Assembly: GCA_007376385.1 (NCBI GenBank) | Contig: VMGC01000005.1 | Coordinates: 1 to 64,000, forward strand | Origin: Parcubacteria group bacterium Gr01-1014_8 | Lineage (GTDB): Bacteria > Patescibacteriota > Minisyncoccia > Phycocordibacterales > UBA2100 | Direction: 5' to 3' | Length of the DNA: 64,000 nt | Shown: positions 2,438-57,699 of the stretch, piece by piece | Layout: each line of letters opens with the position of its first letter | How positions within the stretch are numbered: position 1 is the stretch's first letter | Notes under the pieces: model-generated | Databases searched by the model: none | Told to the model about the DNA's origin: nothing | The model's input: only the letters and a program-made list of their open reading frames with translations | Position numbers and translations under genes: made by a program

Positions 2438-3681
2438 ACGCTTCCACGCGAGCGAATTTCTTCCCTGATGCGTGATAGGAACTCCTCGCACTTTTGTGCG
2501 GGGAGTTTTCCTTTATCGCGGCTCTCCACGGTGATTGTCTGTGAATTCACTTCTTCGTCGCCAACGACGACAAGGTAGGGAATTTTCTCGACTTTTCCGG
2601 CACGAATGCGTTTGCCCAGAGTTTCTGCGGAATCGTCCATTTCGGCGCGGATCCTTTCATTCTTCAACATCGAGACTATTTCTTTTCCGTATGCAGCTTG
2701 TTTTTCTGAAACCGGAAGGACTCTAACCTGGATTGGAGAGAGCCAGAGAGGGAACGCTCCAGCATATTTCTCTATGAGGAATGCCATGATGCGCTCGATG
2801 GCGCCGATGGATGAGCGATGCACGACGAATGCGCGCTTCTTCGAACCGTCTGAGGCGACGTAGGTCAGGTCAAATCTGTCGGGCATGCAGAAGTCATATT
2901 GAACAGTGAACGCGGTATCTTCTTTGCCGTTGGCGTTCTTCATCTGCACGTCTATCTTTGGCCCATAGAATGCGGCCTCGTCCTTGGCTTCGATGTATTT
3001 TCCATCTCTTTTTTCCAATACCTCGCGCAGGAGTTTCTCGCTTTTTTCCCACGCAGCGTCGTTCTTGTAGTACTTTACTGTATTCGAAACGTCGCCCAAA
3101 GAAAGACGATAGCGATAGTCTTTTCCGTACGAAAGCCCGAAGACGCCCGCAATGTATTCGATGAGATTGAGGGCCTGACTCACTTCTTCTGCAGCCTGTT
3201 CTTCGCTGGCGCATACGATGTGAGCGTCAGCCAAGCAGAACGTGCGAACTCTCTGCAGTCCCATCAACTCGCCGGATTGTTCGTAACGGTACAATTGCGC
3301 AAGTTCGGCAATGCGCATCGGGAGTTCTCGATAACTTCGAGGTTTCGAGAGATAGAGTTCAAAGTGGTGCGGGCAGGTCATCGGGCGGAGCATGAATTCG
3401 TCGTCGTCAGTGACTATTGGGGGGTACATTGAGTCTTTGTAGTGAGGGTAGTGCCCAGACTTTTTGTAGAGGTCTAGTTTTGCGATATCAGGGGTTTTCA
3501 CGTGCATATAGCCGCGCTTTATTTCCTCATCAATGACGAATCTCTCGAGTTCGCGGTAGATTGCCGCTCCCTTTTCGGTGAAGAGGGGAAGTCCTTTCCC
3601 TACCGTGTCCGAAAATGTGAAAAGGTCCAGCTCGCGTCCAAGCTTTTTGTGATCTCTCTCGCTCATCTCGTTGTCTGCCAT
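2434..3681 (-). CDS. thrS: Threonyl-tRNA synthetase, short form (class II catalytic core + anticodon-binding domain; no N-terminal TGS/editing domain)
   Basis: Class II aaRS motifs and ThrRS-like core (…FMLRPMTCPHH…, …HRSSIGAIERIMAFLIE…). Start taken at MADNEMSER (ATG 3681). Confidence 0.8.
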   Translation of the reverse strand: MADNEMSERDHKKLGRELDLFTFSDTVGKGLPLFTEKGAAIYRELERFVIDEEIKRGYMHVKTPDIAKLDLYKKSGHYPHYKDSMYPPIVTDDDEFMLRPMTCPHHFELYLSKPRSYRELPMRIAELAQLYRYEQSGELMGLQRVRTFCLADAHIVCASEEQAAEEVSQALNLIEYIAGVFGLSYGKDYRYRLSLGDVSNTVKYYKNDAAWEKSEKLLREVLEKRDGKYIEAKDEAAFYGPKIDVQMKNANGKEDTAFTVQYDFCMPDRFDLTYVASDGSKKRAFVVHRSSIGAIERIMAFLIEKYAGAFPLWLSPIQVRVLPVSEKQAAYGKEIVSMLKNERIRAEMDDSAETLGKRIRAGKVEKIPYLVVVGDEEVNSQTITVESRDKGKLPAQKCEEFLSRIREEIRSRGSV

Positions 3682-4590: not shown

Positions 4591-4712
4591 TATGACCGAC
4601 ATACGATGTCGGTCATAGAGGGTTATCCACTCGGGGTTACTGCTCCCAATGATTCGACTTACAATGTTCGACTTACGATGTCGGTCACTAGATGTCGGTC
4701 ACTACTACATTT
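4591..4712. repeat. REP cluster: one full REP (TATGACCGACATACGATGTCGGTCATA, 4591..4617) plus degenerate REP units (…CGACTTACGATGTCGGTCACTAGATGTCGGTCAC…)
   Basis: Direct sequence comparison with the REP at 3908. Confidence 0.7.
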
Positions 4713-8200: not shown

Positions 8201-8386
8201 CTTGCATTCTTTATAGAAGTCGATAGCTGCATATAAGTTGCCGTTGTCGGTGAGCGCGAGTGCTTCTTGGCCATCCGCTTTGGCTGCCCCTACAAGCTCT
8301 GGGATCTTCGGAAGGGCCTCCAAGAGCGAGTAGTGACTATGGGTATGGAGGTGTACGAAATCTGCTGTCTCTGCACGCGTAGACAT
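5210..8386 (-). CDS. dnaE: DNA polymerase III alpha subunit (PHP domain + polymerase core)
   Basis: N-terminal PHP motif HLHTHSHYSLLEA; length 1058 aa; typical DnaE architecture. Confidence 0.9.
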   Translation of the reverse strand: MSTRAETADFVHLHTHSHYSLLEALPKIPELVGAAKADGQEALALTDNGNLYAAIDFYKECKEQGIKPIIGVDFFVAPRTRHDKEHRVDDRHSRLVLLAKDPAGYKSLIQLVSLAHLEGFYYRPRIDHELLQTYKGGLIAILPAYSGEHARAMKDGAKDKAKQTCAWYRGIFGSDCFAEITRHPEIEGHDAAMKSILELVRVAGIAPVAAHECYYLKKDDALARELVNNIRTGRTLNREFEENAHDFSFITKARAQKLFADIPEALENSKKIADACNVELELGRWVFPDFPIPPHSSHDTELRALAYAGFTERGIAQTSALVERVDYELSVIASKGYSPYFLVVADLLRHARDVGIYTNTRGSAAGSLVSFLCGITTVNPIEYQLPFERFLNPERPSAPDIDMDLADNRRDELIDYVRNKYGEDHVAQIGTFGTMLARAAVRDVARALGHSYGTGDRIAKMIPFGKQGFPVTIDSSLGSIPELKEAYKKDADAREIIDLAKRVEGNARHVGVHAAGVVIAPGKVTDFVPVQLDPKGGKTITQYDMYAVEDAGLLKFDFLGLTNLSVLADSVQRVKERFGTLLNLDRIPLDDPATYSMLSRGETLGVFQLAGGGMTNYLMELKPSTIHDINAMVALYRPGPMAFIPAYIERKHNPTLVKYLDPRMEPILKNGYGVIVYQDDVLEIAIKLAGYTWLEADKLRKAMGKKIPKEMAAQKETLTKGAIKNGMSPTAAQKLWEQIETFAAYGFGRAHAASYGNLAYKTAYMKANYPVDYMAAVLTADAGDVEKIAEVVVECSRMGLAVQPPSVNESRGTFTVTDHSTIRFGLYSIKNFGTGVSDSIISEREKNGRYVSIGDFLIRITDRNLNKKSLESLIMSGALDEFGERNTLLGNIDMLLLYHRESLSAPVDQGSLFGAESATISRELPLVSKEAASIEEKLAWEKELLGFYVSGHPLDKHKEKLARQKMNLKEAREKMPHGVETVIAGFFETVQSILTKNGEKMVFAKLADFSGGVEIVAFPRTLQENSSLFTPGSCVMLKGKFSNRNGETSFVVDRAKAL

Positions 8387-8394
8387 AGGAGCAG

Positions 8395-8498
8395 TATACC
8401 CCGTGAGATAAAATTAAATTTCGTTTATTCGTGAATTATTCGCCATGTATTCAGCCTAGATATGCATAAACCTGCCGAGTTTTATCTCATGGGGTATA
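8395..8498. repeat. IR element copy A: TATACCCCGTGAGATAAAA …69 nt… TTTTATCTCATGGGGTATA
   Basis: 17–19-bp inverted arms with a single G/T (G·U-compatible) mismatch. Sits between divergent dnaE and rnhB starts; the right arm contains an ATG. Confidence 0.6.
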
Positions 8499-9136
8499 TC
8501 GCACGCTATAATCAGAGCGTGGGAATTCGGTATGTCGTAGGGATCGATGAAGCTGGGCGCGGTGCACTCGCGGGTCCCGTATGCGTGGGAGCAGTGCTGT
8601 ATCCGCTCGATTTCGACTGGCGAGAGGCATTTGCTCTTGTTACGAAGAAAGGAAAGCCGAAGCTGCGTGATTCAAAACAACTTTCCGCACAACAACGAGA
8701 CGTTTTGTATGAATATATTGCCGCTCATGGCCGCTTGAAACATGCAGCAGCTTTTGTCAGCGCAGAGATCATAGACGCAATAGGCATTGTGAATGCAGCG
8801 CACGAAGCTGCTGCAGTTGCGATGTCAAAACTCGGTGTTGAGCCGGGGCGCGTTGCAGTGTTGCTTGATTCCGGGCTTCGCGTGCCTCGGATCTGGGAGC
8901 AGGAATCATTTATTCGAGGCGACGAGACGATACCTGCCATATCATGTGCGTCCATTGTTGCGAAAGTCACGCGGGATAGGCATATGGAAGAAATGTCGGA
9001 ACGATACCGAGCGTACGGATTCGAGAGGCATAAAGGATATGGCACTCAGGAGCACCTAAAGAAGATACGATCTGACGGGCTTTCGTCATTTCACAGGGTA
9101 ACGTTCTGCACAAATTTTTCTTCAGTCCCAGACTGA
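8489..9136 (+). CDS. rnhB: Ribonuclease HII
   Basis: GIDEAGRGALAGPV motif. ORF begins at 8462, but the RNase HII core begins near MGYIARY (ATG 8489, inside the IR arm); start uncertain. Confidence 0.8.
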   Translation: MGYIARYNQSVGIRYVVGIDEAGRGALAGPVCVGAVLYPLDFDWREAFALVTKKGKPKLRDSKQLSAQQRDVLYEYIAAHGRLKHAAAFVSAEIIDAIGIVNAAHEAAAVAMSKLGVEPGRVAVLLDSGLRVPRIWEQESFIRGDETIPAISCASIVAKVTRDRHMEEMSERYRAYGFERHKGYGTQEHLKKIRSDGLSSFHRVTFCTNFSSVPD

Positions 9137-11196: not shown

Positions 11197-13404
11197 ATGT
11201 ATTACCTGAAGTCAATCGAATTGACGGGATTTAAGTCGTTTGGCAAGAAAACCACGTTTGAATTCAACGCCGCAATTTCCGCCATCGTAGGTCCCAATGG
11301 TTCCGGAAAATCGAATGTTGCAGAGGCATTTCGATTCGTTCTGGGGGAACAATCGATGAAATCGCTGCGCTCAAAGCGGGGCGAGGACCTGATTTGGGGA
11401 GGTTCTCCTGCGCTGCCGCGCATGAACCGCGCAGGGGCGAAAGTAGTGTTTGACAATTCAAAGCGCCTTCTCGATATTGATTTTCCAGAGGTTTCTGTCG
11501 AGCGGGTTGTCTATCGCGACGGGCAGAATGAATATCTATTGAACGGGAGCATCGTCCGGCTTAAGGATGTCGTCCGGCTGCTTGCGGGTGCGAATATCGG
11601 CGGGTCAGGTTACCAAATAATCTCTCAAGGAGAGGCGGATCGCATACTCAACGCCTCGCCAAAAGAAAGGCGGGAGATGGTGGAAGATTCGCTTGGGCTC
11701 AAGCTCTATCAGCACAAAAAAGCAGAGAGCGAGAGAAAGCTTGAGGAAACGGGCGCGAATATCGAGAAGACAAAGTCGCTTCGGAGAGAGATAGCGCCGC
11801 ATCTGAAATTCTTGCAAACCCAGGTGGAAAAAATAGAAAAAGCACGTGAAATAAAAGAGGATTTGAAAGTGATTCTTGTGGATTATCTTGCGCGCGAGCA
11901 TGCGTGGCTTACCGCAGAACACACGCAACTCTTTGAGGAAGCAAAGGTGCTTGAAACAACGGTGCGTTCTCTGGAAGCAGAAATTAAGTCCGCGCGGAGC
12001 TTCGATACGAGTGGGAACGCTGGCGAGGGCGCGAAGCTTGAGCAGATGCTCCGTGAGACGGAAAAGATACTGACTGACACACGAAAGCAAAGAGAAGCGC
12101 TGGCGAGAGAACTTGGACGCGCGGAAGGCGCGGCGGAGGCCGCGCGAAGCGCGACTGAACACGCAATACCCGCAGCAAACGTTCGGCAATTCGCACGGGA
12201 AATAAGTGATTCCATTGATTCTGTCGCGAGTGTGAGCGAGGTAGAAGAAATGCGTTCCCTCCTCTCGCGTATTAAAGAGAGAATACATTCGTTCGTTGAA
12301 GGCCTCTCGGGAGCTGCGCCAGCATCAAAAAATGAAGCGAAGGAACATGTCTCGGTTCTTTCTGAGGAGTTGAAAAAGAAAGAGAGCGAAGAGGAGAAAT
12401 TGCGTGCACATGCGGAGGAGGTTAGAAAAAAGATGTCTGAAGCGCGCGAAGAACGATTCGTTGCAGAGAGAAAGACAGTAGAAATGGAGGGTTCCATACG
12501 AGAAGCGCAGGGAAAGCTCTCGACAGCTCGCGTGGGTCTTGATTCGATGAAGACTCTGCGCCAGCGTTTTGAAGAAGAGGTGCGGGAGGGCGTGGCTCTC
12601 ATCGGGGCTGATATTCGAGGATGGGAAAGCGCTGGAATACCTGATGGTGCACTGTCAGAAGATAGGAGTGAACAGGATAAGCGCCGCCGCTCGATCGAAC
12701 GTTTAAAGATAAAGATAGAAGAAGCGGGGATAGGAGAGGGAGAAGCAGTCGTCAAGGAATTCACTCAGACAAAAGAGCGAGATGAATTTCTTGCGCGAGA
12801 ACTTATCGACTTGGAAAAATCGGCCGCTTCGTTGAAGAATATTATTGCAGAACTCGAAAGGACCATCGACGTGCAATTTAACGAAGGCTTGAAGCACATC
12901 AATAAAGCGCTCGGCAATTTCTTCTCGAAATTATTCGGAGGAGGGATGGCGAAGCTGGAAGTTGAAGAGCCTCGCCGCACAAAGGCGAAAAAGGGCGAGG
13001 ATGGCGATGATGAGGACGAGATGGATATTCCGGAAGAAGAGGAGCTCTATGCAGGACTCTCGATTGACGTGCAGCTTCCCCGTAAGAAAGTCAGAGGTTT
13101 GGAAGTGCTCTCTGGCGGCGAGCGAGCCCTTACGTCAATCGCGCTCATTTTCTCGATGTCGCAAGTTAACCCCCCTCCATTCCTTATTCTTGATGAGACA
13201 GATGCCGCGCTCGACGAAGCGAATAGCAAGCGGTACGCGGACATGGTCGTGGAATTAGCTGATAAGAGCCAGCTCATCGTCATTACGCATAACCGTGCGT
13301 CTATGGCCGCAGCAGGAGAATTGTATGGAGTGACGATGGATTCGAGCGGGGTATCGAAAGTGTTGTCTGTGAAATTGGAAGAGGCGGCGAAAGTGGCCAA
13401 GTAG
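11197..13404 (+). CDS. SMC-like chromosome partition ATPase, short (735 aa; Walker A GPNGSGKSN, coiled coil, signature LSGGERALTSIAL, Walker B LILDETDAALD); no obvious hinge
   Basis: Motifs read from the translation. Confidence 0.7.
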   Translation: MYYLKSIELTGFKSFGKKTTFEFNAAISAIVGPNGSGKSNVAEAFRFVLGEQSMKSLRSKRGEDLIWGGSPALPRMNRAGAKVVFDNSKRLLDIDFPEVSVERVVYRDGQNEYLLNGSIVRLKDVVRLLAGANIGGSGYQIISQGEADRILNASPKERREMVEDSLGLKLYQHKKAESERKLEETGANIEKTKSLRREIAPHLKFLQTQVEKIEKAREIKEDLKVILVDYLAREHAWLTAEHTQLFEEAKVLETTVRSLEAEIKSARSFDTSGNAGEGAKLEQMLRETEKILTDTRKQREALARELGRAEGAAEAARSATEHAIPAANVRQFAREISDSIDSVASVSEVEEMRSLLSRIKERIHSFVEGLSGAAPASKNEAKEHVSVLSEELKKKESEEEKLRAHAEEVRKKMSEAREERFVAERKTVEMEGSIREAQGKLSTARVGLDSMKTLRQRFEEEVREGVALIGADIRGWESAGIPDGALSEDRSEQDKRRRSIERLKIKIEEAGIGEGEAVVKEFTQTKERDEFLARELIDLEKSAASLKNIIAELERTIDVQFNEGLKHINKALGNFFSKLFGGGMAKLEVEEPRRTKAKKGEDGDDEDEMDIPEEEELYAGLSIDVQLPRKKVRGLEVLSGGERALTSIALIFSMSQVNPPPFLILDETDAALDEANSKRYADMVVELADKSQLIVITHNRASMAAAGELYGVTMDSSGVSKVLSVKLEEAAKVAK

Positions 13405-26684: not shown

Positions 26685-26803
26685 ATTAGGCGTGCCGAGG
26701 GATTGCCTTTTTCGGGTCGCTGTCTGCGCGTGCTCGCGCAGCGCTCACTCTCGCGCCGTCGCGCTGCGAGAGACCCTCACAAGGCAATCCCTCTCGGCCT
26801 AAT
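26685..26803. terminator. Long imperfect inverted repeat (ATTAGGCGTGCCGAGGGATTGCCTT … AAGGCAATCCCTCTCGGCCTAAT) enclosing a GC-rich, internally palindromic 70 nt between convergent rpoD and a membrane-protein gene. Putative bidirectional terminator or structured element.
   Basis: Read from sequence. Confidence 0.4.
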
Positions 26804-28579: not shown

Positions 28580-28623
28580 TATACCCCGCGAGATAAACGG
28601 TCTAGCCGTATCTCACGGGCATA
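28580..28623. repeat. IR element copy D (short hairpin form): TATACCCCGCGAGATAAACGG-tctag-CCGTATCTCACGGGCATA
   Basis: Same arm sequence as copies A/B/C/E but with a 5-nt loop instead of the ~70-nt interior; 15 nt upstream of the dehydrogenase ATG. Confidence 0.5.
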
Positions 28624-33115: not shown

Positions 33116-35080
33116 ATGGTTGCGTCTTTTTTTGTTGCCTCGCTGATTTTGCCGCTTGTAGCAGGAGTTGCTGCGCTTCTTCTCCTGCGTACAAAAGCGG
33201 GTCACATGCTCACGCAATTGGTTTTTGCTCTCGGCGGCCTAAGCGGTGTCGTTGGCGCAACGTTGTTCTATGCGAGCGATGGAGCGAGCACCGTCGTTTT
33301 TCATACGGCACTCTTTAGTCTTGTTGTCGGGACGCTTTCAGTATTCTTTTTGGGAATTATATCCGTCGGTGTTCTTCTCACATCGTTGTATGCGCTTGAG
33401 GGTCTGCGCAGATACAAAAGCGTCTATTCACTCCCGTGGCTTGCCGTTGCGTCTGCTTTTTTCATATTCGGCATGCAGGCAACGGTCATGGCCTCCTCTG
33501 TTGCGGGTTTTCTCGTTGCGTGGGAGTTGATGTCCGTCGCCGCATATTTCCTCGTTATAGCGGATGGCACTGAAGAATCACTGCATGCAGGCTTCTCGTT
33601 TTTTATCATGGCGCACATCGGGTTCGCGAGTCTTGTCGCAGGATTTCTACTTCTTTCTGCGGGCAATCCCTTTGCAGAGTGGCCGGAAGTAGCGCTCGCC
33701 GCAAAAACCATGACGCCGGCGACGCTCTCCGTCGCGTTCTCGCTTTTATTCATCGGCTTCGGCTCAAAAGCGGGTCTTGCCCCGCTCCATCAGTGGCTGC
33801 CCATGGCGCATCCGCAAGCGCCGAGCCACGCTTCGGCGTTGCTATCCGGCGTCATGTTGAAAGTCGCGCTTTTTGGGTTCATTCAATCGCTGTTCTTGTT
33901 TCCATCGGTTCCCCTATCATGGGGCGTTGTTGTCCTTGTGGTAGGACTCGTGTCGGCTTTCTTCGGCGTTCTGCACGCAGTCGTCGAGAGCGACATGAAA
34001 CGAGTACTCGCATGGAGCAGCATCGAGAACATGGGCCTTATTTTCTCTGGCGTAGGCGCAGCAATGATATTGCGCACGTTGCCGTACGAGGCAGGACCCG
34101 TACTCGCATCATCTATCGCCATTTTCGTTGCGCTCCATATCATCAATCACTTTCTCTTCAAGAGCGGGCTCTTCATGGCTGCGGGCGTTATCGTATCGGA
34201 AGTGCATTCTCGTGACATGGATATCATGGGGGGTTTAGCGCAAAAGTGGCCCATCTTCTCCGGCGTTTTTCTAGCTCTCGCGCTCGCAGCGGCAGCGTTG
34301 CCTCCGTTCGGTACATTCTTTGGCGAGTGGATGTATCTGCAATCTCTCGCACTTGCGCTTGTCGGTCTGCCTTTGCCGCTTTCCGTCGTTGCGGGACTCG
34401 TCCTCGCAGCCGTCGCATTGGTGAGCGGCCTTGCTATCGTTGCGTTCGTAAAAATGTTCTCAAGCGTCTTTTTAGGGAGAGCTCGAAATGAACATGCGGA
34501 ACATGTGGGGATGATGCCAATGTCTCTTATGTGGCCGCCAATGGTGTGCGCGATTCTTTCGATTGTTGCCGGGGTGCTTGCATTTCCTTTTTTTTCATCG
34601 CATTTTATGGATGGCGCGAGCATCATGCAAGATGTCGTTATCGTACAAGGCGCCTCCATGAACGCTTGGATCCTGTGGGCGCTTATCGCGGGTCTTGCGA
34701 TCATAGCGCTTCTTCTCGCGCGTTTTCTTCGCGTGCCGGTTCGCATTACGGATACGTGGGATTGCGGGCAGCCGCTCACGTCGCGAATGGAATATACGGC
34801 AACTGGATTCTCGGCACCGTTCCGCTTTTTCTTCCGTGCGTTCTTAGTATCGCGAAAAGAAATGATCGTTACGCCTATCTCTTCAGAGAATCCGTGGATA
34901 GCGAACCGGCGTCTCGAGTGGAGCATTACCTCAACATGGGAGCGGCTCTTTTATCGCCCCGTCGGGCAGGCATTGCTTCGTTTTGCTGAATACGCGCGCA
35001 AGTTCCAAAGCGGCGTCGTCCAGATGTACCTTTTGTTTGTTGTTATCGCTCTTGTCGGAGCATTCATTTTTGCGCTATGA
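33116..35080 (+). CDS. NuoL/HyfB/MnhA-like antiporter-type membrane subunit (654 aa)
   Basis: Multi-TM proton-pumping-subunit signature (…WLPMAHPQAPSHASALLSGVMLK…). Confidence 0.8.
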   Translation: MVASFFVASLILPLVAGVAALLLLRTKAGHMLTQLVFALGGLSGVVGATLFYASDGASTVVFHTALFSLVVGTLSVFFLGIISVGVLLTSLYALEGLRRYKSVYSLPWLAVASAFFIFGMQATVMASSVAGFLVAWELMSVAAYFLVIADGTEESLHAGFSFFIMAHIGFASLVAGFLLLSAGNPFAEWPEVALAAKTMTPATLSVAFSLLFIGFGSKAGLAPLHQWLPMAHPQAPSHASALLSGVMLKVALFGFIQSLFLFPSVPLSWGVVVLVVGLVSAFFGVLHAVVESDMKRVLAWSSIENMGLIFSGVGAAMILRTLPYEAGPVLASSIAIFVALHIINHFLFKSGLFMAAGVIVSEVHSRDMDIMGGLAQKWPIFSGVFLALALAAAALPPFGTFFGEWMYLQSLALALVGLPLPLSVVAGLVLAAVALVSGLAIVAFVKMFSSVFLGRARNEHAEHVGMMPMSLMWPPMVCAILSIVAGVLAFPFFSSHFMDGASIMQDVVIVQGASMNAWILWALIAGLAIIALLLARFLRVPVRITDTWDCGQPLTSRMEYTATGFSAPFRFFFRAFLVSRKEMIVTPISSENPWIANRRLEWSITSTWERLFYRPVGQALLRFAEYARKFQSGVVQMYLLFVVIALVGAFIFAL

Positions 35081-35180
35081 CCCCATGAGAGAAACGATCT
35101 AAATTCTTATGAATCACACCAATTGTAACGAGATGCAGTGCTTCGCTCAGGATCATATCTATTTTTCTCACGGGGTATGA
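35078..35180. repeat. IR element copy E: TGACCCCATGAGAGAAA …69 nt… TTTCTCACGGGGTATGA. Spans the stop codon of the upstream gene and the ATG of the downstream gene.
   Basis: Same arm consensus and ~70-nt spacing as copies A–C. Confidence 0.5.
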
Positions 35181-46112: not shown

Positions 46113-46215
46113 TATACCCCGTGAGATAACTGTTTTCGAGCTACACAAGATGTTAGGACACAGTAAAATATTTAATTCGTCAACAAGCTATACACGTCTT
46201 ATCTCATGGGGTATA
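46113..46215. repeat. IR element copy B: TATACCCCGTGAGATAA …68 nt… CTTATCTCATGGGGTATA
   Basis: Arms identical to copy A, including the G/T mismatch. Confidence 0.6.
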
Positions 46216-56957: not shown

Positions 56958-57060
56958 TATACCCCATGAGATAGGCACGTTCTACCATCTCGAGTGGCGG
57001 AATGTTGCGACGCCTGTTCAGATCTTCAAATAGAGAACTCATTTATCTCACGGGGTATAA
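56958..57060. repeat. IR element copy C (inverted orientation): GTATACCCCATGAGATA …68 nt… TTATCTCACGGGGTATAA
   Basis: Reverse complement matches copies A/B, including the G/T position. Confidence 0.6.
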
Positions 57061-57069
57061 CGTGCAAAT

Positions 57070-57699
57070 GTGCGACTGCAACAAGCGGGTATACTGAGAT
57101 GCATGGAGAAGGCGGAACGTTGTGCAATTCATAATCAGCGTCAGCCTTGTGGAATATGCCGGGTGCTGCGGAATCAAAGGATTGGCCCTGAAAAGGGCAC
57201 AGGAATAGTTTCCGCTATCGCGGCAATCGGAAAGAATAGAGAACTTGGAAAAGGAAATGAATTGTTGTGGCGCATACCTGATGATATGAAGCGGTTCAAG
57301 AAGCTCTCGATGGGGCATCCAATAATTCTCGGGCGAAAAACATTTGGATCCATCGTCAGGGCTATCGGGAAACCACTGCCTGGACGCACAAATATCGTGG
57401 TGACGCGTGATGCGAAGTGGTCGTACGACGAAGTAATTGTTGCAAAATCTCTTGAAGAAGCGCTAGAAAAGGCCAAAGGTGCACCTGGTTCGGAAGAGAT
57501 CATTATCGGCGGGGGCGCGCAGATATACAAACAAGCACTTCCGTACACAACCAGGCTCTATTTGACATTGATAGATGATGAGGGCGAGGCGGATTCTTTT
57601 TTTCCGGAGTATGAGGATGAGTTTACGATCAAGCTCAACGAGGAAAGGCACGAGTGGAACGGCTTGAAATACGTGTGGGTCGACCTCGAGAGAACTTGA
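57070..57699 (+). CDS. folA: Dihydrofolate reductase (true start probably near 57170; non-ATG start possible)
   Basis: IVSAIAAIGKNRELGKGNELLWRIPDDMKRFKKLSMGHPIILGRKTF DHFR core. Confidence 0.75.
   Translation: MRLQQAGILRCMEKAERCAIHNQRQPCGICRVLRNQRIGPEKGTGIVSAIAAIGKNRELGKGNELLWRIPDDMKRFKKLSMGHPIILGRKTFGSIVRAIGKPLPGRTNIVVTRDAKWSYDEVIVAKSLEEALEKAKGAPGSEEIIIGGGAQIYKQALPYTTRLYLTLIDDEGEADSFFPEYEDEFTIKLNEERHEWNGLKYVWVDLERT

What the first reader, a model, noticed from the sequence alone, without database searches (positions are those of the whole stretch)
8395..8498. Family of ~103-bp elements with conserved 17-bp inverted-repeat arms and unrelated ~70-nt interiors (5 copies in this window)
Copies at 8395..8498, 46113..46215, 56958..57060 (inverted), 35078..35180 and a short hairpin form at 28580..28623. 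Arm consensus is TATACCCCRYGAGAKAA paired with TTMTCTCAYGGGGTATA. Interiors are 68–70 nt in all four long copies and show no detectable similarity to each other. The same single position deviates from perfect complementarity in all long copies, G opposite T (a G·U wobble if transcribed). All copies sit immediately at gene starts: dnaE/rnhB, a small membrane gene/SET gene, yhhQ/folA, hyfB stop/hycD start, and the 2-hydroxyacid dehydrogenase start. Several arms contain the start codon. Conserved termini plus constant-length variable interiors are not typical of MITEs or REPs, which have conserved interiors, nor of integron attC sites, which have different core sites. Possibilities include a novel MITE-like or hairpin-forming mobile element, an RNase III-type processing or translation-control hairpin, or the recombination site of an unrecognised system.
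Basis: seen in the sequence. Interest (0 to 1): 0.7.

Follow-up and report, generated by a model that had tools for sequence, protein, structure and literature searches.

The report
Hairpin-ended insertion elements of Patescibacteria
The repeats are real: they are gene-less copies of a small, apparently undescribed kind of inserted DNA that is widespread in the ultra-small Patescibacteria, sits even inside ribosomal RNA and RNase P RNA genes, and whose gene-bearing relatives carry one tiny DNA-cutting enzyme.

Summary
The arm motif occurs 9 times against 0.48 expected: four ~95-bp cores plus one decayed mini-hairpin. A sixth copy lies 2 kb past the window end. The window is a Parcubacteria (Patescibacteria/CPR) contig. 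The same arms, enclosing unrelated, AT-rich, unstructured interiors (mostly 67-73 nt), occur in about 140 public loci. These include sites inside 16S, 23S and RNase P RNA genes. Two window copies are demonstrable insertions. Relatives have one TATGA (hyfB/hycD overlap) or one TATA (dnaE -10 box); the window has the element flanked by that sequence twice. Of 125 elements, 41 carry 4-5-bp flanking direct repeats (6.8 expected). Relatives of ~290 bp with the same arms encode an 85-95-aa Slx1/UPF0213-like GIY-YIG nuclease. Its last four codons (YLTG) are the right arm, and 12 of 14 such genes abut an arm. Best reading: ORF-less members of an old hairpin-ended insertion-element family tied to a GIY-YIG nuclease (MITE/REPIN-like). 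Unexplained: arms stay invariant in situ while interiors drift at fixed length. The nuclease's role and any RNA-level removal are untested. The literature mentions GIY-YIG-encoding and short uncharacterised inserts in CPR rRNA genes, but not this repeat family. Verdict: new variant of a known kind.

The parts
8395..8498 (-). ORF-less element, copy 1. The core is 8399-8494 (CCCCGTGAGATAA ... TTATCTCATGGGG) with a 70-nt interior. It is flanked by the direct repeat TATA at 8395-8398 and 8495-8498. It lies between the dnaE start (8386, minus strand) and the rnhB start (GTG ~8519). The strand given is the orientation matching the GIY-YIG-bearing relatives.
   Evidence: The relative L150 has an empty site with a single TATA.
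35076..35180 (+). ORF-less element, copy 4 (GAGAGAA arm subtype). The core is 35081-35175. It is flanked by the direct repeat TATGA at 35076-35080 (containing the hyfB stop TGA) and 35176-35180 (containing the hycD start ATG).
   Evidence: Relatives L143 and L144 have empty sites with one cTATGAcc overlap.
46113..46215 (-). ORF-less element, copy 2. The core is 46117-46211 with a 69-nt interior, flanked by TATA on both sides. It ends 13 nt upstream of the SET-domain gene start (46228).
56958..57059 (+). ORF-less element, copy 3. The core is 56962-57055, flanked by TATA on both sides. It lies in the divergent yhhQ(Vut_1)/folA intergenic region, 67 nt and 43 nt from the two starts.
28580..28623 (.). 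Decayed mini form. The left arm is TATACCCCGCGAGATAA, followed by a 12-nt loop and a degenerate right arm TATCTCACGGGCATA. It begins 15 nt upstream of the 2-hydroxyacid dehydrogenase start (28564, minus strand).
   Evidence: Comparable mini forms occur in other loci.

Best explanation
The five features are ORF-less members of an old family of small hairpin-ended insertion elements of Patescibacteria. I could not find this family described in the searchable literature.

Shown:
- Each long copy is a ~95-bp core bounded by the 13-nt inverted repeat CCCCGTGAGATAA / TTATCTCAYGGGG around an unconstrained, AT-rich interior of ~70 nt.
- The core was inserted into the chromosome with duplication of 4-5 bp of target: TATA of a -10 box, or TATGA of a stop/start overlap.
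- Elements with the same ends occur throughout Patescibacteria, including as helix extensions inside 16S, 23S and RNase P RNA genes.
- Relatives of ~280-295 bp with the same ends carry one gene, an 85-95-aa GIY-YIG nuclease with an Slx1/UPF0213-like fold. Its last four codons, TAT CTC ACG GGG, are the right arm, and its stop codon is the flank.

Inferred:
- The nuclease recognises the arms, probably as an extruded hairpin or branched DNA on one strand. It makes the cuts that mobilise or maintain both the gene-bearing and the gene-less forms in trans, as a RAYT does for REPINs or a transposase for MITEs.
- Insertions survive only where the target duplication regenerates the signal it split (-10 box, stop plus start codon), or where the self-pairing arms let the insert fold out of an RNA helix.
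- After insertion the copies persist for very long times. The arms are held by selection and the interior drifts.
For: - Non-random arms: 9 matches against 0.48 expected.
Core length is 87-109 nt with a mode of 95-96, within an allowed range of 81-111.
- Insertion shown twice. L143 and L144 have a single TATGA where the window has TATGA-core-TATGA. L150 has a single TATA where the window has TATA-core-TATA.
- Direct repeats of at least 4 bp abut 41 of 125 elements; shuffled partners give a mean of 6.8 and a maximum of 13. Non-palindromic repeats number 19 against 1.0 expected. Repeat lengths are only 4 or 5 bp.
- Long forms encode a GIY-YIG protein. In the fetched loci, 12 of 14 GIY-YIG genes have an arm within 60 nt, 11 of them within 6 nt, although only 4.3% of the sequence lies that close to an arm.
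- The YLTG codons are invariantly TAT CTC ACG GGN in Patescibacteria, Bacteroidota and Acidobacteriota copies.
- A 46-nt-spacing form in L145 retains the last 11 codons of the ORF, so it is a deletion derivative.
- The nuclease model (pLDDT 90.5) is closest to the Slx1 structure-specific nuclease and to UPF0213.
- Elements act as helix extensions in RNase P P3 and in a 16S helix. They have been inherited vertically there with diverged interiors.
- The arms co-vary: CCAC/GTGG, GGGA/TCCC, GAGAGAA/TTCTCTC.
- The element has an intrinsic polarity.
Against: - No two copies within one genome share an interior. The window plus 10 kb holds 6 copies, all different. Across ~130 elements only orthologous loci share interiors, so there is no sign of recent copying.
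- The arms are kept nearly invariant in situ and interior length is held at 67-73 nt while interior sequence drifts. Selfish mobility alone does not explain this.
- About half of the elements have no flanking direct repeat, and repeat length varies between 4 and 5 bp.
- No GIY-YIG gene lies in the 74 kb seen of this genome. Whether the genome has one is unknown.
- GIY-YIG nucleases hydrolyse DNA and are not known to carry out transposition. An 87-aa protein has no separate DNA-binding domain.
- The metagenome set was collected with an exact arm pattern, so arm invariance in that set is by construction. The unbiased evidence is the window copies and by-catch copies.
Confidence: 0.6

Rival explanations
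1. The element is primarily an RNA-level module. The arms form a 13-17-bp double-stranded RNA stem that is a processing site (RNase III or a dedicated enzyme). The insert is then cut out of pre-rRNA, RNase P RNA and mRNAs, like the intervening sequences of 23S rRNA. Selection for this processing is what keeps the arms. This reading is compatible with an origin by insertion.
For: - Relatives lie inside 16S, 23S and RNase P RNA genes as extensions of native helices.
- In all 5 asymmetric cases there, the G.U wobble, rather than an A.C mismatch, is on the RNA-sense strand.
- The arms co-vary.
- Inserts in CPR rRNA genes are reported to be absent from transcripts, and short ORF-less ones are guessed to be RNase III intervening sequences (PMC11270868).
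- In other phyla the gene-bearing form interrupts tyrosine-recombinase genes whose downstream part differs mostly at synonymous sites.
Against: - Arm sequence, not just pairing, is conserved across phyla, which double-strand-specific RNases do not require.
- In co-directional mRNA contexts the better-pairing strand is sense in 8 cases and antisense in 10.
- Interiors show no structure signal, with a median z of about 0.
- The window has no Rfam match.
- This reading does not explain the target duplications or the nuclease gene fused to the arm.
Confidence: 0.22
2. The element is a DNA-level regulatory module. The two arms are operators for a dimeric or tetrameric regulator, or an outward-facing promoter pair, placed at gene starts about 8 helical turns apart.
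For: - Several copies read outward as GGGGTATAnT-N6-8-ATG, the geometry of leaderless promoters in this genome.
- Spacing is constant, about 83 bp centre to centre.
Against: - The TATA is duplicated target DNA that is already present in relatives without the element.
- Copies occur inside rRNA and RNase P RNA genes and at an intra-operon stop/start overlap.
- Arms almost never occur singly.
- A sigma-70 consensus scan finds nothing at copy 1.
- Only 48 of 128 elements have a start within 40 nt.
Confidence: 0.04
3. The elements are integron attC-like folded recombination sites, or sites of another tyrosine-recombinase system.
For: - They are imperfect inverted repeats with a variable centre and a strand-specific deviation.
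- In Bacteroidota, Acidobacteriota and other MAGs the gene-bearing form lies inside integrase genes and near cassette-like arrays.
Against: - The arm sequence lacks the RYYYAAC/GTTRRRY core sites.
- Window copies are scattered over 50 kb among housekeeping genes, not in an array behind an integrase.
- Insertions duplicate 4-5 bp of target, which attC x attI recombination does not do.
Confidence: 0.03

Closest known systems
MITEs, in particular Correia elements (CREE/NEMIS) of Neisseria
   Same: Both are ~100-150 bp, ORF-less and bounded by terminal inverted repeats. Both show a short AT-rich target duplication and sit next to gene starts, where the TA-rich junction can form a -10 box. Both can fold as a hairpin in transcripts. 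(The properties of Correia elements are stated from general knowledge.)
   Different: Copies of a MITE family share their whole sequence; here only the 13-nt ends are shared. The arms are conserved across class- to phylum-level lineages. The gene-bearing relative encodes a GIY-YIG nuclease, not a DDE transposase. The duplication is 4 or 5 bp rather than a fixed length.
REP/REPIN elements with their RAYT (HUH Y1) gene
   Same: Both have two inverted short repeats separated by a less conserved spacer of ~70 nt. Both have a small nuclease gene that is itself flanked by the repeats. Both are dispersed intergenic copies that persist vertically for long periods, with a hairpin on one DNA strand as the likely substrate.
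   Different: The enzyme family differs (GIY-YIG, not HUH tyrosine). There is no GTAG-type REP motif. Target duplications are present here. Copies occur inside rRNA and RNase P RNA genes. The host range is Patescibacteria.
Intervening sequences of bacterial rRNA genes, and the 'insertion sequences' reported in CPR rRNA genes (Brown et al. 2015 as cited in, and Tsurumaki et al. 2024, PMC11270868)
   Same: Both are ~100-nt stem-loop inserts in variable rRNA helices. GIY-YIG ORFs are reported in CPR rRNA inserts that match no intron, and many short ORF-less inserts are left uncharacterised. Some of those are probably this family.
   Different: The paper describes no conserved inverted repeat. The family found here is mostly outside rRNA (intergenic regions, stop/start overlaps, RNase P RNA). 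It shows target duplications and empty sites.
GIY-YIG homing endonuclease genes (I-TevI, the Seg proteins of T4)
   Same: Both have the GIY-YIG catalytic domain. Both lodge in conserved genes (rRNA, and recombinase motifs in other phyla), and both have ORF-less derivatives.
   Different: There is no group I intron around it and no DNA-binding extension. Targets are many and unrelated rather than one homing site. The element has terminal inverted repeats. The fold is nearer to Slx1/UPF0213 than to I-TevI.
Slx1 / UPF0213 (YhbQ-like) stand-alone GIY-YIG nucleases
   Same: These are the best structural matches: Slx1 at TM 0.63-0.67 and 24-29% identity, and BH0048. Slx1 cuts branched and stem-loop DNA (general knowledge), which fits a hairpin substrate.
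   Different: Slx1 works with Slx4 and carries a RING domain. Neither Slx1 nor the UPF0213 proteins are known to be tied to a repeat family.

Membership tests
MITE (non-autonomous inverted-repeat transposable element) | Terminal inverted repeats | tested here: met
   A 13-nt core is repeated in inverted orientation in all four long window copies and in ~130 elements elsewhere.
MITE (non-autonomous inverted-repeat transposable element) | Target-site duplication and empty sites in relatives | tested here: met
   Relatives have a single TATGA or a single TATA where the window has the sequence twice. Of 125 elements, 41 have 4-5-bp direct repeats against 6.8 expected. About half have none.
MITE (non-autonomous inverted-repeat transposable element) | Copies of the family share sequence along their whole length (descent from one parent by copying) | tested here: not met
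   An all-against-all BLAST of interiors shows that only orthologous loci, one tandem duplicate and one 21-nt match share sequence. The window copies are mutually unrelated.
MITE (non-autonomous inverted-repeat transposable element) | An autonomous partner with the same ends that encodes the transposase | tested here: inconclusive
   The same ends flank a GIY-YIG gene. No transposition activity is known for this fold, and no such gene was seen in the 74 kb of this genome.
REP/REPIN-RAYT system | Associated HUH Y1 transposase-like RAYT gene flanked by the repeats | tested here: not met
   The flanked gene is GIY-YIG (PF01541), not Y1_Tnp.
REP/REPIN-RAYT system | Inverted doublet of short repeats with a less conserved spacer, dispersed in intergenic DNA | tested here: met
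rRNA intervening sequence removed by RNase III | Stem-loop insert in a variable rRNA helix | tested here: met
   Met for the relatives L023 and L055 (16S) and L030 and L054 (23S). None of the window copies is in an rRNA gene.
rRNA intervening sequence removed by RNase III | Excision from the transcript by RNase III | not testable with these tools
   No transcript data were available. The only support is the literature statement that CPR rRNA inserts are absent from transcripts.
Integron attC site | R''/L''-L'/R' boxes with RYYYAAC ... GTTRRRY cores, at cassette ends in an array next to intI | tested here: not met
   The arm sequence is CCCCGTGAGATAA, and copies are scattered among housekeeping genes.
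Homing endonuclease gene within a self-splicing intron | Group I or II intron ribozyme around the ORF, and one specific homing site | tested here: not met
   Among the 20 loci scanned with Rfam, the only intron-model match (group-II-D1D4-1 in L127, about 700 nt from that element) does not overlap an element, and the window has none. GIY-YIG inserts in CPR rRNA are 'not similar to either intron'. Targets are many and unrelated.
GIY-YIG nuclease superfamily (for the protein of the long forms) | GIY-YIG catalytic domain with conserved Tyr, Tyr, Arg, His and Glu | tested here: met
   PF01541 matches at E 1e-14 to 1e-15 over the full domain. Y6, Y8, Y19, G21, R29, H33 and E53 are invariant. The model has pLDDT 90.5 and is closest to Slx1.

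The most novel reading that the evidence does not exclude
This would be a new class of prokaryotic mobile element whose only gene is an ~87-aa Slx1-like GIY-YIG nuclease fused at its 3' end to the terminal inverted repeat. The nuclease would act on the hairpin formed by the 13-nt arms. The many gene-less copies would be either mobilised in trans or kept as nuclease or RNA-processing sites. That would explain how they live inside 16S, 23S, RNase P RNA and, in other phyla, recombinase genes without killing them, behaving in effect like protein-dependent introns or intervening sequences.
Probability: 0.35. Interest if true: 0.85.

Novelty: new variant of a known kind. Interest (0 to 1): 0.72.

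Why it matters
Patescibacteria make up a large share of bacterial diversity, yet their genome biology is poorly known. Their rRNA genes are known for unexplained inserts.

This family links three things: a fraction of those inserts, inserts in RNase P RNA, and about 80 copies per Mb of intergenic repeats in this genome. All share one element type with a defined 13-nt end and a candidate enzyme.

If the nuclease link holds, it adds a GIY-YIG-based system to the short list of enzymes that spread small repeats in bacteria (DDE transposases, HUH RAYTs). It also gives a compact protein-DNA pair that can be tested in vitro.

There are practical consequences too. Gene callers are misled: they start rnhB and yhhQ inside the element and fuse ORFs to arms. 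The arm motif is also a sensitive marker for this kind of insert in metagenomes.

Tried and rejected
- Rfam gave no family at gathering score in the window.
- Two scans of IMG/VR viral contigs, for the short and long forms, found no matches, so there is no phage link.
- A literature search for the arm sequence returned only chance primer matches. Searches for GIY-YIG with MITE, with integron and with UPF0213/YhbQ returned nothing relevant except PMC11270868.
- Intron-like interruption of protein genes in Patescibacteria: conceptual excision restores no real spanning ORF. The apparent long ORFs were junk upstream frames or fused neighbours.
- Short interiors as remnants of the nuclease ORF: an HMM search of six-frame translations found only the L145 46-nt form plus two marginal hits.
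- Structured interior: folding z-scores centre on 0 on both strands.
- Arm ATG as a start codon: the in-frame excess (14/73 against 13/154) follows from the TATAnT-N6-ATG spacing. rnhB homologues start downstream.
- G.U strand equals mRNA strand: 8 against 10, so no bias.
- Promoter consensus at copy 1: none found.
- CRISPR-like array idea: tandem sets have at most 2-4 units and no cas-like neighbours were seen, so I dropped it.
- A look-up to extend the contig beyond the window start failed because there was no exact product on record.
- The subtype with TATGA ends is not one orthologous locus. It sits at different gene junctions: murG/gltX, pilB-like/response regulator, and hyfB/hycD.

Full report
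**1. The observation**

The 17-nt arm consensus with up to 3 mismatches has 9 matches in the window. Dinucleotide shuffles give 0.48 expected and never more than 2.

The matches are four inverted pairs, at 8395-8498, 35076-35180, 46113-46215 and 56958-57059, plus the left arm of a short hairpin at 28580-28623. A relaxed scan finds no further convincing arms in the window.

Interiors are 69-71 nt and 34-48% G+C, and they have no mutual similarity. The G-opposite-T deviation is real in three copies. The fourth copy has it together with a second deviation.

**2. Source and genes**

The window is part of ENA contig ERZ27284378:k139_616945 (189,832 bp). Its proteins are named in NCBI as 'Parcubacteria group bacterium Gr01-1014_8'.

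A sixth full copy and a solo arm lie 2 kb beyond the window end (L152 13164-13259 and 13095-13111). That makes about 6 copies in 74 kb.

**3. Distribution**

An exact pattern scan of one genome per species returned 20 loci. Seventeen are named as Patescibacteria lineages (Saccharibacteria, Kaiserbacteria, Nomurabacteria, Parcubacteria, Paceibacterota) and three are unnamed 'bacterium' MAGs.

Core length (CCCC to GGGG) is 87-109 nt with a mode of 95-96, although 81-111 nt was allowed.

Neither the interior nor the flanks have conserved positions. Interiors are AT-rich (37.6% G+C against 47.7% in the flanks) and are not more structured than shuffles. No copy occurs in 2.9 million viral contigs.

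Because these sets were collected with an exact arm pattern, arm invariance in them is by construction. The unbiased evidence is the window itself and the by-catch copies. The by-catch copies show that positions 1-12 rarely change. When they do, both arms often change together: CCAC/GTGG, GGGA/TCCC, GAGAGAA/TTCTCTC.

**4. They are insertions**

*Copy 35076-35180.* In the relatives L143 and L144 (HycD 70% and 68% identical), hyfB and hycD overlap as a single cTATGAcc. The window has TATGA-core-TATGA, so both the stop and the start codon are regenerated.

*Copy 8395-8498.* The relative L150 (RNase HII 77% identical) aligns on both sides and has one TATA, the -10 box of dnaE. The window has TATA-core-TATA.

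*Across the family.* Among 125 elements with distinct flanks, 41 have a direct repeat of at least 4 bp abutting the core. Shuffled partners give a mean of 6.8 and a maximum of 13. Nineteen repeats are non-palindromic (TAGA, TCTA, CTGG, CCAG, TTGA, TTAG, TGAA, TATGA, TATAA) against 1.0 expected. Lengths are only 4 or 5 bp.

In this genome many first genes have TATAnT 6-7 nt before the ATG and no Shine-Dalgarno sequence. A preference for TA-rich targets would therefore place elements at gene starts.

**5. Copies inside RNA genes**

Rfam places elements inside 16S rRNA (L023, L055), 23S rRNA (L030, L054) and RNase P RNA (L082). L113 and L077 are also assigned to RNase P RNA, on the basis of the GAGGAAAGTCC motif.

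In L082 the arms are helix P3 itself. In L023 they replace a 16S helix whose native stem also begins CCCC/GGGG.

Orthologous pairs (L082/L113, L023/L055) keep the arms and arm-proximal bases while the middle of the interior has diverged. This indicates long vertical inheritance. L061, L100 and L110 show the same at an intergenic site.

In protein-coding regions of Patescibacteria the elements do not interrupt ORFs.

**6. The link to a nuclease**

Arms also occur at other spacings: about 20, 46-48, 58 and 268-281 nt start to start.

The long forms (L077, L092, L122, L126) encode an 81-93-aa protein matching Pfam GIY-YIG at E about 1e-14. The right arm encodes its last four residues, YLTG. The stop codon is the TAA/TGA just outside GGGG, which explains the frequent TTCA...TAAA flanks.

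In the fetched loci, 12 of 14 GIY-YIG genes have an arm within 60 nt and 11 within 6 nt, whereas 4.3% of the sequence is that close to an arm.

The protein family is large: 1,594 hits, all those inspected ending in YLTG. It is 64-80% identical even between Patescibacteria and MAGs named Bacteroidetes, Ignavibacteria, Melioribacteraceae and Acidobacteriota. In all copies inspected, YLTG is written TAT CTC ACG GGN, so the DNA sequence itself is constrained.

A 46-nt-spacing form in L145 still encodes ...KRYIKNRIKNYLTG and is therefore a deletion derivative. The ~70-nt interiors show no such remnant.

The AlphaFold model (pLDDT 90.5) is closest to the structure-specific nuclease Slx1 and to UPF0213 BH0048, and is far from I-TevI and UvrC. 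No curated NCBIfam model covers the protein.

**7. Polarity**

When elements are oriented like the gene-bearing form, the ends read TTCA-CCCC(G/A)TGAGATAA ... TTATCTCACGGGG-TAAA. The common one-sided G-to-A change is always in the 5' arm.

Counts of the states at this position are 55 G-C, 84 one-sided and 1 A-T.

One strand therefore always pairs, as G-C or G.T. That strand is the RNA strand in 5 of 5 rRNA and RNase P cases, but shows no bias (8 sense, 10 antisense) between co-directional protein genes. This fits a hairpin on one DNA strand, with orientation selected only where the insert must pair in a structural RNA.

**8. Other phyla**

In L145-L149 the gene-bearing element, sometimes with a short form beside it, lies inside tyrosine-recombinase or integron-integrase genes. 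The insertion points are the RHS|FATH and LLGH..|..TTMIYTHV motifs.

The downstream gene part differs between L148 and L149 mostly at synonymous sites. Whether these genes are spliced, excised or dead could not be decided.

**9. Interpretation**

The best-supported reading is that the window copies are ORF-less members of an old hairpin-ended insertion-element family associated with a small GIY-YIG nuclease. The closest known behaviour is that of MITEs (Correia-like) and REPIN/RAYT systems.

Shown: insertion, duplication, distribution, the shared ends with the nuclease gene, and tolerance in RNA helices.

Inferred: that the nuclease recognises the arms and mobilises or maintains the copies.

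Not explained:
- why the arms are invariant in situ;
- why interior length is fixed while interior sequence is free;
- why no sibling copies are seen within a genome;
- why half the copies lack a direct repeat.

An RNA-level processing role (intervening-sequence-like) is the main rival and is not exclusive with this reading.

**10. Prior knowledge**

Tsurumaki et al. 2024 (PMC11270868) report that in CPR rRNA genes all GIY-YIG proteins are encoded by inserts unlike either intron class. They also report that many short (<200 bp) ORF-less inserts are uncharacterised and possibly RNase III intervening sequences. They describe no inverted repeat.

No paper in the library contains the arm sequence in this context.

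I therefore rate this as a new variant of a known kind. There is a substantial chance (about 0.35) that it is a new class of nuclease-driven element.

Noticed in passing
L145 700-1400; L146 9900-10300; L147 140-520; L148 and L149 9960-10340: In MAGs named Bacteroidetes and Acidobacteriota, and in two others, the arm-bounded GIY-YIG element lies inside tyrosine-recombinase or integron-integrase genes. In L145 and L146 a short form lies beside it. The insertion points are the conserved RHS|FATH and LLGH..|..TTMIYTHV motifs. The downstream gene part differs between L148 and L149 mostly at synonymous sites. L148 looks like a cassette array.
   Followed up: partly
L142 9872-10000 and 10946-11081: A Kaiserbacteria relative carries a different, GC-rich palindromic insert of ~125 nt at the hyfB/hycD junction and at the next stop/start junction. 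Both end in ...caccTATGA. Stop/start overlaps therefore seem to be a shared safe landing site for several hairpin element families.
   Followed up: partly
L150 3871-3960; L151 about 3406-3500: Another hairpin insert of ~95 nt (ggtgcaccccRgtaccacagcgct...ctggctacggggcaggc) sits inside the first codons of dnaE (MSSRAQTADF | insert | ..FVHLHTH). The gene caller then picks a new start after it. L150 has a weak Y1_Tnp (IS200/RAYT-like) gene next to dnaE.
   Followed up: partly
window 8372-8394 (dnaE), 8508-8521 (rnhB), 57087-57105 (folA); L152 and L001 gene starts: Many first genes of this genome have TATAnT 6-7 nt before the start codon and no Shine-Dalgarno sequence, which is the geometry of leaderless mRNAs. 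Gene callers place the rnhB start inside the element, and the mechanical ORF list does the same for yhhQ.
   Followed up: partly
L152 13095-13111 (about 2 kb beyond the window end): A solo arm, GTATACCCCTGAGATAA (one base deleted), provides GGGGTATACT-N6-ATG for the gene on the minus strand. A complete sixth element follows 52 nt later (13164-13259, flanks TTAG/TAAA).
   Followed up: yes
L113 1655-2100: This RNase P RNA gene carries the element in P3 and two further inserts. One is a mini arm hairpin capped by a GCAA loop (CCCCGTGAGATGCC-GCAA-GGCCTATCTCACTGGGG), at the place where L082 has an ordinary helix.
   Followed up: no
L003 2712-3290; L083 624-818; L088 7680-7874; L062 10196-12433: Elements occur in tandem or nested clusters separated by only 4-5 nt (GGGG-nnnn-CCCC). 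Abutting arms then form a perfect 13-bp hairpin with a tetraloop. The two units in L083 are 98.5% identical, the only clear local duplication seen.
   Followed up: partly
window 26697-26793: A GC-rich imperfect palindrome of ~97 nt (34-nt arms, 79% complementary) lies between convergent genes. It is unrelated to the arm family.
   Followed up: no
window 4593-4687: Two copies of a hairpin, TGACCGACAT(ac)GATGTCGGTCA, lie 47 nt apart in an intergenic region.
   Followed up: no
L151 1-3405 and 7247-8615: In the Kaiserbacteria relative, DnaE and SMC carry inteins (Pfam Intein_splicing plus LAGLIDADG_3). The window's orthologues, at 1058 aa and 735 aa, do not.
   Followed up: no
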